A DNA stretch of 40,220 bases from a virus (Duplodnaviria; Heunggongvirae; Uroviricota; Caudoviricetes). The notes under the pieces are model-generated. The model saw only the letters and a program-made list of their open reading frames with translations. It was not told the origin of the DNA and did no database searches. Position 1 is the stretch's first letter. Every line of letters starts with the position of its first letter. The stretch lies in the IMG/VR virus record IMGVR_UViG_2671181134_000016; one strand, written 5' to 3'. Positions 34,309 through 38,796 of this stretch are shown here, one piece after another. The position numbers and the translations under genes are program-made.

Positions 34309-34724
34309 AAATGAAATGGTCCCCATCTGTTCAGGGATTTTTCTCTGAAAATAACAGCGATATTCCCGATGATGCTTTCGATATTGAAGATGCTCTTTAT
34401 TATGAACTTATGAATGGTCAGAGTACGGGGAAAATTATTATCAATAACCCGGATAACTACCCTGTACTTACTGAATATCCAGCGAAGACACAGGAACAGG
34501 AAATAGCTGAAGCGGAGGGAATGAAAAGTATACTTATTGAACAGGCCAACGAATACATGAACAGTAAGCAATGGCCTGGTAAAGCCGCTATTGGTCGTCT
34601 GAAAGGTGAGGAACTGGCGCAATATAATTTGTGGCTGGATTATCTGGACGCACTGGAACTGGTTGATACCTCCAGTGCGCCAGATATTGAATGGCCTACG
34701 CCTCCGGCAGTTCAGGCCAGATGA
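34305..34724 (+). CDS. Tail fibre assembly protein (Tfa, expressed orientation)
   Basis: C-terminal conserved Tfa motif (...WPTPP...); coupled to the tail fibre stop. Confidence 0.8.
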
Positions 34725-35298
34725 CATCCGGCGCGGTGCTGGTATCTGTTGCCGTCACCGAGTCAATGTAATCCAGCACAGCGTTAAGTCGGGTGTTTTC
34801 TGTCTGCGTCAGCTTCCGCCCGGCCTGTAATTTCAGTTGAATCAGACTGATGGAAGCCATTGCAGCATCAATCAGCGACTGGCGCTGTGCTTCTGCCGCT
34901 TCTACTGCGGCGCTATGCTGTGCCTCAGTATCGGTCACCCATTTCTCACCATCCCATTCATCGTATGGCGTTAACGGGGCGATAGTGGTTGTATTTTCAG
35001 GATAATCACCCGGAGTTGTGATTTCTTTCGATTCTCCTGTTTCGGTGCTATAGATGATTTCACCGCGATGATCTGGTACATATTCCCATGAGTTAAAATC
35101 TGCAGAGCGGCAGATTGCATAACCAGCTTTGTAGGTGCCTGGAGCATCTAAACAGGAATATGCCGGAATGCCGACACCAACAGCAAGATATTCAGTTGAA
35201 GCTGAAATATACTCCCGACTCATGACGTCAAAGTTATAAACAGTAATTTCTCCTGCCATAGTGGCAATTAATTCACTGTTTAATTCTGCGTTATTCAT
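34696..35298 (-). CDS. Alternative tail fibre assembly protein (Tfa', silent orientation)
   Basis: C-terminus ...[12 protein letters not shown] is Tfa-like; convergent with Tfa. Confidence 0.75.
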   Translation of the reverse strand: MNNAELNSELIATMAGEITVYNFDVMSREYISASTEYLAVGVGIPAYSCLDAPGTYKAGYAICRSADFNSWEYVPDHRGEIIYSTETGESKEITTPGDYPENTTTIAPLTPYDEWDGEKWVTDTEAQHSAAVEAAEAQRQSLIDAAMASISLIQLKLQAGRKLTQTENTRLNAVLDYIDSVTATDTSTAPDVIWPELPEA

Positions 35299-35783
35299 TA
35301 TGCAGCCCTCACAATATAGTTAAAAGCGACATTTCGTGGGCGTGTTTCATTCGCACCTGCAGGTTTAGTCGTTGCCGCAACAACACCACCCTCTGTAATA
35401 GCCGGGTTGGGAATTGGGTAATTATCGAAGTCAATGGCTGGAGACAGGGGCGTGATTTGTTTTAAAATCGTGGTGCCTGTAAAACTTCCCAGAGTCTGGT
35501 CGTTAGTTCGTGAAGTCCAGATTCCCCAATAGTGGTTATGACTGACAATCGCACCGTCCTGAAGCGTTAATAATCCCCTTCCGTTATCCACTCCACGTCC
35601 GTCATCCCAGCCACGAATAAACTCACCGCGTAAATCAGGTAATTTATTTGTCGGATAAGCCTTTGCCAGTTCCGGGTATTCTTCAGCAGAAAAAGCTGCT
35701 CCGTTGCATTTCAGCCAGCCTGTTGGCGGAGTGGCTGAAGGCCACGGAACAGGCACACCAACGGGTAATGCTGAGCCTTCTCC
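35298..35783 (-). CDS. Alternative tail-fibre variable C-terminal segment (Sv'), lacking its own start; fused to the constant part upon inversion
   Basis: The frame continues from the crossover repeat (GLGE) with no ATG; the track's 'M' at 35786 is a TTG. Confidence 0.7.
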   Translation of the reverse strand, partial: GEGSALPVGVPVPWPSATPPTGWLKCNGAAFSAEEYPELAKAYPTNKLPDLRGEFIRGWDDGRGVDNGRGLLTLQDGAIVSHNHYWGIWTSRTNDQTLGSFTGTTILKQITPLSPAIDFDNYPIPNPAITEGGVVAATTKPAGANETRPRNVAFNYIVRAA

Positions 35784-35791
35784 CAAACCAA
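35777..35791. repeat. Right inversion crossover site (reverse complement of TTGGTTTGGGAGAAG)
   Basis: Inverted copy immediately upstream of the invertase gene. Confidence 0.65.
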
Positions 35792-35857
35792 CCTTTTAGA
35801 AAATGCAGTTGTTTCGTTCAGGTGGCATGATTCCGGCTTTTTACAGGGCTATTTATC

Positions 35858-36406
35858 ATGCTTATCGGCTATGTACGCGTGTCAACAAATGACCAGAACA
35901 CGGCATTGCAGCGAAACGCGCTGGATTGCGTAGGATGTGAACTGATATTCGAAGATAAGATCAGCGGCAGAAGTCTGACAGACCGGGACTGAAGAAGGTG
36001 CTCAGGACGCTATCAGAAGGCGATACGCTGGTGGTCTGGAAACCGGATCGTCTCGGTCGCAGCATGCGGCATCTTGTCGTTCTGGTGGAGGATACGGGAA
36101 AGAGGGATTAACTTTCGCAGCCTGACCGACAGCATAGACACATCTTCGCCAATGGGGCGTTTTTTCTTTCACGTTATGGGCGCTCTGGCTGAAATGGAGC
36201 GAGAACTGATTGTCGAACGCACTAGGGCGGGCCTTGCCGCGGCTCGTGAAGAAGGGCGGATCGGTGGGCGTCGTCCAAGGCTAACAGATGAGCAATGGGT
36301 GCAGGCAGGAAGATTGATAGCTGCTGGGGAATCACGGCAGCGCATAGCGATCATCTATGATGTTGGCGTATCGACGCTGTATAAAAAATTCCCGGTTAAT
36401 TGTTAA
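35858..36406 (+). pseudogene. pin: Pin/Gin/Hin-family serine DNA invertase disrupted by two compensating frameshifts (-1 near 35969-35977, +1 near 36091-36094)
   Basis: N-terminus MLIGYVRVSTNDQNT and C-terminus RERGINFRSLTDSIDTSSPMGRFFFHVMGALAEMERELI are in the same frame; the middle (DRPGLKKVLRTLSEGDTLVVWKPDRLGRSM) is in another frame; stop at 35990 in the start frame. Confidence 0.8.
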
Positions 36407-36560
36407 CAGATGCCGCAGTCTCGCCATATGCAAGAGCGGACTGCGGCAGGCAACAGAGTGTTCATGCCCACATTGCCGACAGAAAGGATAGCAGAGAAAA
36501 GAGAAGGTGGAATTGTCAGGTGTTTCACCATTAATTCACCATCGGCAAATTGCAGGTATA

Positions 36561-36590
36561 AAAAAACCAGCCTTAAGAGGTTGGTTTTAT
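36561..36590. terminator. Putative bidirectional terminator after the invertase region
   Basis: A-run, imperfect stem CCAGCC/GGTTGG, T-run. Confidence 0.4.
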
Positions 36591-36720
36591 TGGGGAATTT
36601 TGGTCGCACGAGAGAATTTGAACCTCCGCCCCCTGACACCCCATGACAACAAGCAATAATATGTATAACATGGGTTTTTACATGACATATAATAAATTAA
36701 TTTTTGTAAAGGGAAATCTT

Positions 36721-37681
36721 ATGGATTCAAGAAGATATTTGCATACTGTAATATTAATTGCTGGTATAGTATTTATATGTATATTGGTTATATACTTAAT
36801 TTATCCAAAGGTGATATTTACTATCAGTGATAACTATTTAAATCCATTGGTTTTAATAGCGATGGTTTTGTCGTTTTCCTCAGTAGTGCTGTTATTTATA
36901 AAGTATTTAAATAAGGATATTGGCAATGATCATTCTAAAAAAGAAACAGCACAGAATTATGCCATTGAACTGAAGAAAGAACTAGAAAGAATAAATGGGA
37001 GACTTGAGGCAATAGATAGGCCCATTGCTGGAAAATCCAGTGATATCATACTAAGTGATGCGGAGAGAGCAGATTTTATTGAAAGGGCGAAAAAGAAAAT
37101 TGCAGGTGAAATGATAATTAATGCATCAGAAAGTTTAAAAAAAGAGATGCAACACATTAAAGAACAGTTAAGTATTAATGAGCATTATGAAGATATGGTT
37201 TACAGAATCAAAAAAGAAATAGATAGACTTAACAGGCGAGGTGGAGCTAACCTTGGCATTGGTGCTTCAATCGCTTTTTTTGGAATAGCGTATCTGGGTT
37301 ATGTTGTTTCAAAACAAACTGTCACGACCGATGTAATTAATTATCTGATTCATATGTTACCTCGAATTTCTTTTGTATTAGTTATAGAGGTTTTTGCATA
37401 TTTTTTTTCTAAAGTTATATAAAAATGGTTTTGATGAGGTAAAATATTTTCAAAATGAATTGACAAATATTGAGGCAAAAGTATTGGCCATTAAATTTTT
37501 AAAAGATGTTAAAAATGAAGATTTAATGGCTGAAGTTATAAAAAATCTAATGACAACAGAGAGGAATTTTATATTATCAAAAGGACAGACGACTGTGGCA
37601 TTAGAAAAAGAAAAAATCAAGGGGCTTGAAGATAAAAATGCTTTATCTATTATAAAGGAGTTAATTAAGTTAAAAAGTTAG
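36721..37681 (+). pseudogene. AT-rich membrane / coiled-coil protein of unknown family, interrupted by a +1 frame change in a T8 homopolymer (37401-37408)
   Basis: ATG at 36721 with AAGGGA upstream; 2 TM + coiled coil + 2 TM; deleting one T in the T8 run joins both ORFs into about 320 codons. Confidence 0.5.
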
Positions 37682-37985
37682 CGGGGATATTAAGTGAGGT
37701 TGGTTGTACGTTGCAGGTGCTTGTGCATCTGCATTTAAATAATGAGGTTTAATTAAACAGCACGTGAATAATAAAATAAATAGGCTGTTTAATTTTTTTA
37801 ATAGGGAGGGAAGGTAGCTCATGATTTTTACTGGGTAGGTGATATAGCTTATTGTAGTATCGTTCATGCTTGTTGAACTTAAGGTTTGATACTCCGCCAT
37901 ATATACCGGTCCGCTGAGAATGTAAGATACAAAAGTCTTTTATAGTATCAAGTTATACTTCACGAGCAAAATATGAGGAGTGTTT

Positions 37986-38198
37986 ATGAAGGGAAGAACC
38001 ATTGCTGACTATGCAAAGTTAGCGCAAGAATCTGCCAAACGTAACGTATTAAGAACTGAGTTTAGTGAGTATCTCAAGGTAAATGGCCTGGAGAGGAGTG
38101 AAGAGAATGCTCATACTTTTGCCTTTGGGAAAACAAACAATCATGACGATAGAGTTAATCTTGTACATATGCTGATGTCAGGTGTATGGGGTGGCTAA
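37986..38198 (+). CDS. Small hypothetical protein (70 aa)
   Basis: ATG at 37986 with GAGGAG Shine-Dalgarno 5 nt upstream. Confidence 0.4.
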   Translation: MKGRTIADYAKLAQESAKRNVLRTEFSEYLKVNGLERSEENAHTFAFGKTNNHDDRVNLVHMLMSGVWGG

Positions 38199-38529
38199 AT
38201 CATCATTAAGGCTGGAAAATTTTCACCAATGAAGGTTGCTGTTTTCTGTAAGCTTTTGAGGGTACAGCAATGAGAATTATGAAGTATTGGAGAAAAATAA
38301 ATTCAACTAATTGATTACACTATATAAAATGCATGATTTAAATTCTCTCTTTAGAGTGAACCTACTGAATAGTGTTAGCTGTCGATTTTGACCAAAAAAG
38401 GGTTATCAAAACCCAAAAACATATATTGATAATCAGTGGGTTAGGGGAATGCCGATAGTCAGTTGGTTAAGTGTGAATTGGTGGAATTATACTTACATAT
38501 CAAATTGTTGGTATTAGTCTTTCTAAATA

Positions 38530-38694
38530 ATGTTACGCCATATGGGCTGGACTGAAGCCGCAGACCTGATTGTTAAAGGTATGGAAGGCGCAATCAATGC
38601 GAAGACCGTAACCTATGACTTCGAGCGTCTGATGGAAGGCGCTAAACTGCTGAAATGTTCAGAATTTGGTGACGCGATCATCAAGAACATGTAA
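38530..38694 (+). pseudogene. icd: 3' fragment of isocitrate dehydrogenase gene (icdC-like attachment-site remnant)
   Basis: Encodes [54 protein letters not shown], the remembered C-terminus of E. coli Icd; in-frame stop immediately upstream shows it is a detached fragment. Confidence 0.85.
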
Positions 38695-38745: not shown

Positions 38746-38796
38746 ATTTATGTAGGTATTATTAATAGCATATCGAGCATATTTATATAAAACCCT

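What the first reader, a model, noticed from the sequence alone, without database searches (positions are those of the whole stretch)
36721..37681. Right-end cargo at the mcrA-equivalent position: membrane/coiled-coil protein split by a T8 homopolymer frameshift
Between the invertase and the icd fragment, where e14 carries the McrA restriction endonuclease as I recall, this prophage has a very AT-rich gene encoding two N-terminal TM helices, a long coiled-coil, two more TM helices and a soluble tail. The reading frame breaks exactly in a T8 run (37401-37408); deleting a single T yields one continuous ORF of about 320 codons. That could be a sequencing error, an inactivating mutation, or slipped-strand phase variation.
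Basis: partly seen in the sequence, partly recalled or inferred. Interest (0 to 1): 0.6.

Follow-up and report, generated by a model that had tools for sequence, protein, structure and literature searches.

The report
Frameshifted prophage membrane-protein cargo gene
A one-base insertion has knocked out a prophage-carried gene for an uncharacterised four-helix inner-membrane protein that sits where the related prophage e14 keeps a restriction enzyme. The break is an ordinary inherited mutation, but the intact family is widespread, unstudied, and may protect cells against phages.

Summary
One gene (36721-37681) is split by a T8 run at 37401-37408, and removing one T gives a 319-codon ORF. E. 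coli ARS-C101 carries the same 1.2 kb with T7 and an intact gene.

- **Not a sequencing error.** The truncated product is recorded on 79 contigs, the intact one on 45.
- **No sign of phase variation.** Only T7 and T8 exist. T8 appears on one flanking haplotype, and sublineages that later diverged all keep it. A paralogue with the same T7 shows no length variants.
- **Origin of the run.** T7 is simply invariant Tyr-Phe-Phe written in AT-rich codons.
- **Effect.** The shift truncates TM4 and removes the conserved C-terminal domain, so this is probably a null allele in a decaying prophage.

The protein belongs to PHROG 5157 (about 2,900 clusters at 50% identity, many phyla). It has no Pfam, PADLOC or NCBIfam assignment, no PDB fold match and no conserved neighbouring gene. 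Relatives sit at prophage ends and accessory-gene (moron) slots, three times next to icd. The same slot elsewhere holds McrA, HNH and GIY-YIG nucleases, or gtrABC. I infer, without a direct test, a stand-alone membrane protein for phage exclusion or abortive infection.

The parts
36385..38372 (+). Variable cargo cassette of the e14-like prophage, lying between the conserved pin region and the conserved prophage right end next to icd'.
   Evidence: BLASTN against K-12 e14: homology runs to window 36384 (78%) and resumes at 38373 (84%). K-12 has mcrA in between.
36566..36589 (+). Stem-loop plus T-run just after pin, read by eye as a terminator (ACCAGCC...GGTTGGTTTT).
   Evidence: Read directly from the sequence. 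The terminator scan did not list it.
36601..36647 (-). Degenerate 3' half of a tRNA-Pro (proL-like) gene. It serves as a secondary attachment site.
   Evidence: ARAGORN and Rfam call no tRNA. In strain S19-651 a 9,797-bp satellite is inserted exactly here, flanked by TGGTCG(G)CACGAGAG.
36665..36693 (+). Promoter-like site: ATAACA, 17-nt spacer, TATAAT.
   Evidence: 10 of 12 consensus matches. The number of such sites in this AT-rich stretch does not exceed shuffled controls, so the evidence is weak.
36709..36714 (+). Shine-Dalgarno-like AAGGGA, 6 nt before the ATG at 36721.
   Evidence: Read from the sequence. The N-termini of homologues align with MDSRR, which favours 36721 over the annotated 36682 start.
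36721..37422 (+). 5' part of the broken gene (frame 1). It encodes residues 1-229 plus four out-of-frame residues (SKVI) and a stop. It covers TM1, TM2, the cytoplasmic helical region, TM3 and most of TM4.
36742..36903 (+). N-terminal hairpin of TM1 (about residues 8-27) and TM2 (about 42-61).
   Evidence: Kyte-Doolittle hydropathy; AlphaFold helices.
36904..37251 (+). Cytoplasmic helical, coiled-coil-like region of about 115 residues (62-177), ending in the invariant R..E......RG..NL motif.
   Evidence: Weak sequence hits to coiled-coil proteins.
37252..37417 (+). TM3-loop-TM4 hairpin (residues 178-232) with invariant G181, G188, P214, E223 and the FAYFFLKLY motif.
   Evidence: Alignments A1 and A6; hydropathy.
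37401..37408 (+). T8 run. This is a +1 insertion relative to the in-frame T7 (TAT TTT TTT = Tyr-Phe-Phe).
   Evidence: The only difference from ARS-C101 across 1,201 bases. T7 is in frame in three diverged homologue groups.
37409..37681 (+). 3' part of the broken gene (frame 2). It encodes residues 230-319: the end of TM4 and the conserved cytoplasmic C-terminal domain (KYFQNELTN, TERN, KGQTT), then a stop at 37679-37681.
   Evidence: It carries 13 of the 28 invariant positions.
37986..38198 (+). Orphan 70-aa ORF in the same cassette. It is not a conserved partner of the family.
   Evidence: Annotated as hypothetical. No hit in Pfam, PADLOC, PHROGs or NCBIfam. Absent next to homologues elsewhere.
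38530..38694 (+). icd' fragment: the displaced 3' end of isocitrate dehydrogenase, on the chromosomal side of attR.
   Evidence: ORF translation; annotation in related genomes; icdC in K-12.

Best explanation
**What it is.** A single accessory (moron-type) gene of an e14-like cryptic prophage. It sits in the variable slot between the Pin invertase and the icd attachment end.

**The intact protein (shown).**
- The intact allele has T7 and encodes 319 aa.
- It belongs to a large uncharacterised family, PHROG 5157.
- Its predicted topology is N-in/C-in in the inner membrane: a TM1-TM2 hairpin, a cytoplasmic helical region of about 115 residues, a TM3-TM4 hairpin with an invariant glutamate, and a conserved cytoplasmic tail of about 87 residues.

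**The mutation (shown).**
- A replication-slippage insertion of one T in the codons for the invariant Tyr-Phe-Phe motif shifts the frame inside TM4.
- The product ends four residues later and loses the whole conserved tail.
- This T8 allele is inherited in a sublineage of E. coli.
- The neighbouring pin gene is also broken by two indels, so the allele is one of several lesions in a decaying prophage.

**Function (inferred, not shown).**
- The truncated product is non-functional, or at best a weak hypomorph.
- The intact protein acts alone, as an oligomer in the inner membrane, to protect the lysogen against other phages.
- It would do this either by blocking genome entry (like P22 SieA or T4 Imm) or by permeabilising the membrane on infection (an abortive-infection effector).
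For: **The mutation**
- T7 versus T8 is the sole difference across 1,201 bases between the window and ARS-C101, where the gene is annotated intact.
- The truncated product is on 79 contigs and the C-terminal fragment on 75. The intact protein is on 45 contigs, plus a 319-aa call on 22.
- In the loci sampled, T7 occurs on both flanking haplotypes (38673 C and T). T8 occurs only on C.
- T8 persists in sublineages that have since diverged by a private SNP, by a second SNP plus a satellite insertion, and by segment inversion.
- T6 and T9 products of this gene are absent from the protein collection. So are T6 and T8 products of the paralogue P0072.
- The pin indels are not in homopolymers.

**Family and architecture**
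- PHROG 5157, E = 1.4e-71, spanning the break.
- 2,876 clusters at 50% identity, all full-length at about 320-370 aa, with no fusions among the 150 best listed.
- 28 invariant residues, 13 of them downstream of the shift.
- AlphaFold model with pLDDT 86 and pTM 0.69.

**Stand-alone gene**
- Immediate neighbours in 53 genomes share no family; the commonest family occurs 3 times among 105 proteins.

**Context pointing to defence or exclusion**
- Relatives lie between the antiterminator Q region and the lysis genes on the opposite strand, shown in Klebsiella; the Citrobacter relative sits in a similar late-region/endolysin slot.
- One lies next to a prophage integrase in E. coli.
- Three lie at icd-adjacent ends: Escherichia, Enterobacter and Proteus.
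- One lies beside an E2/ThiF/JAB gene cluster.
- In IMG/VR viral contigs of 25 kb or more, 17 of 44 copies lie within 3 kb of an end, against 6.7 expected (P about 2e-4).
- The same icd' slot in other strains holds McrA, an HNH endonuclease, a GIY-YIG nuclease, or gtrABC.
- Small serine recombinases such as Pin are reported markers of adjacent defence genes (PMC13552941).
Against: **Against the functional inference**
- No experiment and no homology to any characterised protein support the defence function.
- No PADLOC model matches.
- tblastn against 50,697 deposited phage genomes found nothing, so carriage by active phages is not shown.
- Defence-type neighbours are few: a handful of OLD/GajA/AriA-like and KAP ATPases among 105. 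Many neighbours are housekeeping genes.

**Against a single-origin null allele**
- Single origin of T8 rests on nine sequenced loci and three variable sites.
- A run of 8 U can give some transcriptional slippage. PMC1088944 cites about 10% frame restoration at an A8 run in a human gene. The allele may therefore be leaky rather than null.
Confidence: 0.6

Rival explanations
1. The T-run is a contingency locus. Slipped-strand mispairing switches the gene ON (T7) and OFF (T8) at high frequency, giving phase-variable expression of a costly membrane protein.
For: Both alleles are common: 45 or more contigs against 79. The flanking DNA is nearly identical between them. T7 is retained in homologues at 41-62% identity although synonymous TTC codons would break it.
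Against: - Only two lengths are seen, and T6 and T9 products are absent.
- The paralogue with the same T7, on 153 contigs, has no T6 or T8 product in the collection.
- T8 is confined to one haplotype and kept through later divergence.
- The tract is short for a contingency locus.
- The TTT preference fits a 29% GC gene, and the Klebsiella homologue interrupts the run.
Confidence: 0.07
2. The extra T is a homopolymer sequencing or assembly error, and the gene is intact in the organism.
For: Homopolymer indels are the typical error of long-read assemblies. The difference from ARS-C101 is a single base.
Against: - The exact truncated proteins are recorded on 75-79 contigs from many independent assemblies.
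- Three further loci read here, including two complete genomes, have T8.
- No other homopolymer frameshift is evident, and the pin lesions are not in homopolymers.
Confidence: 0.02
3. The T8 allele still yields some full-length protein. RNA polymerase slippage on the U8 run (loss of one U), or a +1 ribosomal slip on UUU UUU U, would restore the frame. T8 would then be a low-expression allele rather than a null.
For: Runs of 8-9 A or T support transcriptional slippage in some systems. PMC1088944 reports about one tenth full-length product at an A8 run in a human apoB mutant, 8A sites in IS elements, and selection against runs that becomes visible at 9 in many bacteria. A single-nucleotide deletion in the transcript would recreate the wild-type sequence exactly.
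Against: - No homologue keeps an out-of-frame arrangement; all are in frame. It is therefore not a conserved programmed event.
- Efficiency at 8 T in E. coli is unknown and probably low.
- No stimulatory element was looked for or found.
Confidence: 0.12
4. The protein is a MotA/TolQ/ExbB-type proton-channel stator subunit, as one UniRef name for a homologue suggests. It would use proton flow to power a process at the envelope.
For: - It shares MotA's topology: four TM helices, N-in/C-in, with a large cytoplasmic loop between TM2 and TM3.
- UniRef names one homologue 'MotA/TolQ/ExbB proton channel domain-containing'.
- hhalign finds a local match of R..E...RGN..L..G to the segment before ExbB TM2.
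- It has an invariant membrane-embedded Glu.
Against: - PF01618 is hit by only 2 of 52 members, best E = 0.039.
- hhalign probabilities are 0.4% against MotA, 6% against ExbB, and 0.5% against an ExbB+TolQ alignment.
- No MotB/ExbD/TolR-like partner gene lies next to any homologue.
Confidence: 0.04
5. The intact gene is prophage cargo with a role unrelated to phage defence. Examples would be a lysogenic-conversion membrane protein affecting host envelope physiology, or a lysis-timing factor.
For: - No defence model matches it.
- Two homologues sit beside lysis genes.
- Weak PHROG similarity to a holin/anti-holin family, E = 0.11.
- Many chromosomal copies lie among housekeeping genes.
Against: - In the lysis-region cases the gene is on the opposite strand to the late operon, so it is not part of it.
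- Its recurrent att-end position, and the nuclease or gtr cargo in the same slot, fit defence or exclusion better.
Confidence: 0.25

Closest known systems
PHROG 5157 (phage protein family of unknown function)
   Same: Full-length profile match, E = 1.4e-71, profile positions 62-329 of 331. Same length and architecture.
   Different: Nothing is known about the family. It carries no functional annotation, and I found no paper that mentions it.
McrA (EcoKMcrA), the cargo of K-12 e14 at the same position
   Same: Same slot between pinE and icd' in a related prophage, with conserved flanks. Both are single accessory genes at the prophage end.
   Different: No sequence or domain relationship. McrA is a soluble HNH type IV restriction enzyme. 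This is an integral membrane protein with no nuclease domain.
P22 SieA and similar prophage-encoded inner-membrane superinfection-exclusion proteins (T4 Imm, HK97 gp15)
   Same: A single prophage gene for a small multi-pass inner-membrane protein that acts alone. [quoted passage not shown]
   Different: SieA is 162-164 aa with three TM helices and no long cytoplasmic helical region. There is no sequence similarity, and no exclusion phenotype has been tested here.
MotA/TolQ/ExbB proton-channel family (PF01618)
   Same: Four-TM N-in/C-in topology with a large cytoplasmic insert. A short local motif resembles the segment before ExbB TM2.
   Different: Sequence-profile and fold tests fail, and there is no partner subunit gene.
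Coiled-coil-plus-hydrophobic-hairpin pore formers (IpaB, YaxB, colicin Ia)
Homopolymer contingency loci (phase-variable genes of Neisseria, Haemophilus, Campylobacter)
   Same: A frameshift in a coding homopolymer that separates ON and OFF alleles in a population.
   Different: The tract is short (7 or 8). Only two lengths exist, T8 looks single-origin, and a paralogous T7 tract is stable.

Membership tests
PHROG 5157 | Significant full-length match to the family profile | tested here: met
   E = 1.4e-71, 242.5 bits; protein residues 46-318 against profile 62-329 of 331.
MotA/TolQ/ExbB (PF01618) | Match to the Pfam profile at or above the gathering score | tested here: not met
   No hit for the repaired protein. 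2 of 52 homologues hit, best E = 0.039.
MotA/TolQ/ExbB (PF01618) | Profile-profile similarity to MotA, ExbB or TolQ | tested here: not met
   hhalign probability 0.4% (MotA), 6% (ExbB), 0.5% (ExbB+TolQ alignment).
MotA/TolQ/ExbB (PF01618) | Adjacent partner gene of MotB/ExbD/TolR type | tested here: not met
   No conserved neighbour in eight inspected contexts or among 105 immediate neighbours in 53 genomes.
MotA/TolQ/ExbB (PF01618) | Fold similarity to solved stator subunits | tested here: inconclusive
Known anti-phage defence systems (PADLOC-DB v2.0.0) | Match to any defence-protein model | tested here: not met
   No family matched at E up to 10.
SLATT 2-TM effector domain | Pfam SLATT profile match or significant fold match | tested here: not met
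   No SLATT family in the Pfam hits listed (all hits for the repaired protein; the 25 commonest families for the 52 members). SLATT proteins appear only at Foldseek E = 0.2-0.7 in BFVD.
McrA-type type IV restriction endonuclease | HNH nuclease domain | tested here: not met
   No nuclease domain in Pfam or NCBIfam. No DNA homology to K-12 mcrA.
Phase-variable contingency locus | Several tract lengths segregating in the population | tested here: not met
   Only T7 and T8 products are in the collection; T6 and T9 are absent.
Phase-variable contingency locus | Repeated independent ON/OFF switches on a phylogeny | tested here: inconclusive
   Nine loci. T8 occurs only on the 38673-C haplotype and T7 on both, which fits one event, but the sample is small.
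Programmed frameshift / transcriptional-slippage gene | Out-of-frame arrangement conserved among homologues | tested here: not met
   Homologues are single in-frame ORFs, and T7 is in frame in three diverged groups.
Prophage superinfection-exclusion membrane proteins (SieA/Imm type) | Integral inner-membrane protein encoded by a single prophage gene | tested here: met
   Four predicted TM helices. A stand-alone gene in prophages.
Prophage superinfection-exclusion membrane proteins (SieA/Imm type) | Blocks infection or DNA entry of a superinfecting phage | not testable with these tools
   Requires plating and DNA-entry assays with the T7 allele.

The most novel reading that the evidence does not exclude
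The intact gene represents a widespread, uncatalogued, single-protein anti-phage or exclusion system that works at the inner membrane. It spans about 2,900 clusters at 50% identity in Proteobacteria, Bacteroidota, Acidobacteriota, Planctomycetota and other phyla. Its fold matches nothing solved. The T8 allele in this lineage would be a naturally occurring knock-out, giving a near-isogenic pair (ARS-C101 against the STEC strains) for testing.
Probability: 0.4. Interest if true: 0.6.

Novelty: new variant of a known kind. Interest (0 to 1): 0.4.

Why it matters
The frameshift is routine prophage decay and matters little. The gene it hits is more useful. It belongs to a large, phylogenetically broad family with no annotation, no structural relative and no partner gene. 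It recurs in the prophage slots where restriction enzymes, nucleases and O-antigen modification genes sit. If the intact allele protects against phages, it would add a single-gene, membrane-acting mechanism that current defence catalogues do not contain. Natural T7 and T8 alleles with almost identical flanks make the test simple.

Separately, the pseudo-tRNA-Pro fragment beside the gene has captured a P4-like satellite in one strain. This shows that a prophage's cargo region can serve as a landing site for a satellite.

Tried and rejected
- **Library scans.** Pfam, NCBIfam and PADLOC scans of the repaired protein and the small neighbouring ORF gave nothing above threshold.
- **Solved structures by sequence.** Only coiled-coil noise.
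- **Deposited phage genomes.** tblastn found no match.
- **MotA/ExbB hypothesis.** Tested with hhalign and rejected. The ExbB homologue search returned only sequences at least 85% identical to ExbB among those listed, so it added little.
- **Structure prediction input.** I modelled homologues instead: P0005 at 62% identity and P0111 at 30%.
- **tRNA fragment.** Rfam and ARAGORN do not call it. Its identity rests on an alignment to proL recalled from memory and on the satellite insertion.
- **Literature.** Searches by PHROG id, sequence motif and accession found nothing, including in the supplements of two defence-discovery papers. One paper had no supplements held and one was not held at all.

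Full report
**1. The observation**

The window is the right end of an e14-like prophage of E. coli integrated at icd.
- A frameshifted pin invertase lies at 35858-36406.
- An icd' fragment lies at 38530-38694, followed by iraM and ycgX.
- A T8 run lies exactly at 37401-37408 and is the only A/T run of 8 or more in the window.
- Frame 1 from ATG 36721 stops at 37420-37422. Frame 2 continues to the stop at 37679-37681.
- Deleting one T gives a 319-aa protein.
- GC is 29.4% against 49.1% for the window.

The start at 36721 is preferred over the annotated 36682 for three reasons. It has an AAGGGA ribosome-binding site 6 nt upstream. A TATAAT-type promoter-like site ends at 36693 (weak evidence in AT-rich DNA). 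Homologue N-termini align to MDSRR.

**2. One gene, broken**

- PHROG 5157 matches the repaired protein across the junction, E = 1.4e-71.
- All 314 homologues found are single proteins of about 320-360 aa.
- An exhaustive profile search finds 2,876 clusters at 50% identity (1,632 at E of 1e-30 or better). The 150 best listed are all about 220-440 aa with full-length or near-full-length matches, and none is a fusion.
- The shift falls in the most conserved stretch, IEVFAYFFLKLYK..E(V/I)KYFQNELTN.
- 13 of the 28 invariant positions lie downstream of the shift.

**3. Nature of the T8 allele**

Only 3 of 5,426 complete E. coli genomes carry the gene. ARS-C101 has the same 1.2 kb with T7 and an intact annotated gene. 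STEC17-183 and S19-651 have T8.

In the large protein collection:

| Product | Allele | Contigs |
|---|---|---|
| 246-aa truncation | T8 | 79 |
| 65-aa C-terminal fragment | T8 | 75 |
| 332-aa intact protein | T7 | 45 |
| 319-aa call of the same protein | T7 | 22 |

. A sequencing error is therefore excluded.

Nine loci were compared:
- T7 occurs with both C and T at 38673. T8 occurs only with C.
- T8 is retained in lines that later diverged: a private G at 38454 in the window, and T at 38071 plus a satellite insertion in S19-651.

Predicted T6 and T9 products of this gene are absent from the collection. So are T6 and T8 products of the E. coli paralogue P0072, which has the same T7 tract and is seen on 153 contigs.

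T7 is TAT TTT TTT, coding the invariant YFF motif. It is in frame in the ARS-C101 allele, in a Kosakonia homologue (62% identity) and in the paralogue (41%). The Klebsiella homologue interrupts the run.

The adjacent pin gene carries a 1-nt and a 2-nt deletion outside homopolymers. In S19-651 the capsid gene has an internal stop.

Conclusion: a single heritable +1 slippage mutation in a decaying prophage. Some frame restoration by transcriptional slippage on U8 cannot be excluded (PMC1088944).

**4. The protein**

- Hydropathy gives TM helices at about 8-27, 42-61, 178-197 and 211-232. Positive charges at the N-terminus and after TM2 suggest an N-in/C-in topology.
- The AlphaFold model of a 62% homologue reached pLDDT 72.
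- A model built on 149 diverse sequences reached pLDDT 86 and pTM 0.69. It is all-helical. A helix of about 90 residues runs into TM3, and one of about 59 residues runs out of TM4.
- Pfam, NCBIfam and PADLOC give no assignment.
- The MotA/TolQ/ExbB label on one UniRef entry is not reproduced. hhalign probabilities are 0.4-6%, there is no partner gene, and MotA is not a top fold match.

**5. Context**

K-12 e14 has pinE-mcrA-icdC. Homology with the window stops at 36384 and resumes at 38373, so this is a cassette swap at the mcrA position.

The same slot before icd' holds other cargo in other strains:

| Strain | Cargo before icd' |
|---|---|
| K-12 | McrA |
| GPEC617 | McrA |
| STEC388 | frameshifted GIY-YIG nuclease |
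| CDF6 | 322-aa HNH endonuclease |
| PCP07014 | gtrA/gtrB/glucosyltransferase plus humD |

Family members elsewhere are always single genes:
- next to the integrase of a lambdoid prophage in E. coli;
- between antiterminator Q and the holin, on the opposite strand, in Klebsiella, and between late-region genes (YbcO, DUF1367) and the endolysin, also on the opposite strand, in a Citrobacter prophage remnant;
- directly after an intact icd, beside int/xis, in Enterobacter;
- between tail-fibre genes and an icd' fragment in Proteus;
- beside an E2/ThiF/JAB cluster in a metagenome genome.

In IMG/VR, 70 viral contigs carry the family. In contigs of 25 kb or more, 17 of 44 copies lie within 3 kb of an end, against 6.7 expected. 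Redundancy among contigs is a caveat.

Pattern scanning found the family in 112 GTDB species from many phyla. Their 105 immediate neighbours share no family. They include three integrases, two transposases and a few OLD/GajA/AriA-like and KAP ATPases.

Small serine recombinases are reported as markers of adjacent defence genes (PMC13552941). Against this, no deposited phage genome carries a homologue.

**6. Mechanism**

Shown: the lesion, its inheritance, the family, the predicted topology and the stand-alone cargo status.

Inferred: loss of function of the T8 allele, and a phage-exclusion or abortive-infection role at the inner membrane for the intact protein. The analogy is with single-gene inner-membrane exclusion proteins such as P22 SieA (PMC10883804). 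The invariant membrane glutamate and the conserved cytoplasmic tail would be the functional core.

I put the mutation account at about 0.9 and the defence or exclusion role at about 0.45.

**7. Verdict**

The frameshift is an ordinary fixed mutation. The interest lies in the uncharacterised family and in the natural T7/T8 pair available for testing.

Noticed in passing
window 36601-36647 (minus strand); L019 (NZ_CP075852.1, S19-651): A 47-nt pseudo-tRNA-Pro (proL-like) 3' half lies just left of the cargo gene. In strain S19-651 a 9,797-bp P4-like/PICI-like satellite is inserted exactly there, flanked by TGGTCG(G)CACGAGAG. The satellite carries an integrase, Ash, Icd-like proteins, DUF4222, a D5-type primase, SSB and PerC. 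A prophage cargo region is thus acting as a satellite attachment site. The proL sequence used for the alignment was recalled from memory.
   Followed up: partly
window 35858-36406: The pin invertase is a pseudogene, with a 1-nt deletion near 35969 and a 2-nt deletion near 36092 relative to K-12 pinE. Neither is in a homopolymer. It is annotated as frameshifted in all three complete genomes that carry this prophage variant.
   Followed up: partly
window about 34696-35800; L001, L002, L016, L018: The invertible tail-fibre segment is in opposite orientation in ARS-C101 and L016 compared with STEC17-183, L018 and the window, although pin is broken in all of them. This implies inversion in trans by another invertase, or inversion before pin decayed.
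   Followed up: no
window 37986-38198: An orphan 70-aa ORF in the same cassette, annotated hypothetical. It has no hit in Pfam, PADLOC, PHROGs or NCBIfam and is not found next to homologues of the membrane protein.
   Followed up: partly
L185-L188 and L031 (slot upstream of icd' in other E. coli): The slot next to icd' is a variable cargo position. It holds McrA, a 322-aa HNH endonuclease, a frameshifted LEM-3-like GIY-YIG nuclease, or gtrA/gtrB/glucosyltransferase with humD.
   Followed up: partly
L024/L025 (Enterobacter cloacae), L026 (Proteus hauseri): Homologues at 41-45% identity also sit at the very ends of unrelated icd-integrated elements in two other genera. One lies right after intact icd and one right before an icd' fragment.
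   Followed up: partly
window 38454; L001 near window 38766: The window has a private G at 38454 where all eight related loci have A, so it comes from a strain not among the complete genomes searched. ARS-C101 has a 17-18-bp insertion near 38766 relative to the other loci.
   Followed up: no
protein cluster (P0001, P0126-P0134): Many draft assemblies end a contig inside this gene, producing 'partial' proteins of 200-292 aa. The likely cause is poor coverage of 29% GC DNA.
   Followed up: no
L012-L015 (Klebsiella prophage): The Klebsiella prophages carrying a homologue also carry Kiwa (KwaA/KwaB) and Acb2/Tad1-like anti-defence genes; three of the four loci also carry Tad2-like and Sequestin genes. 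This is a dense mix of defence and counter-defence cargo.
   Followed up: no
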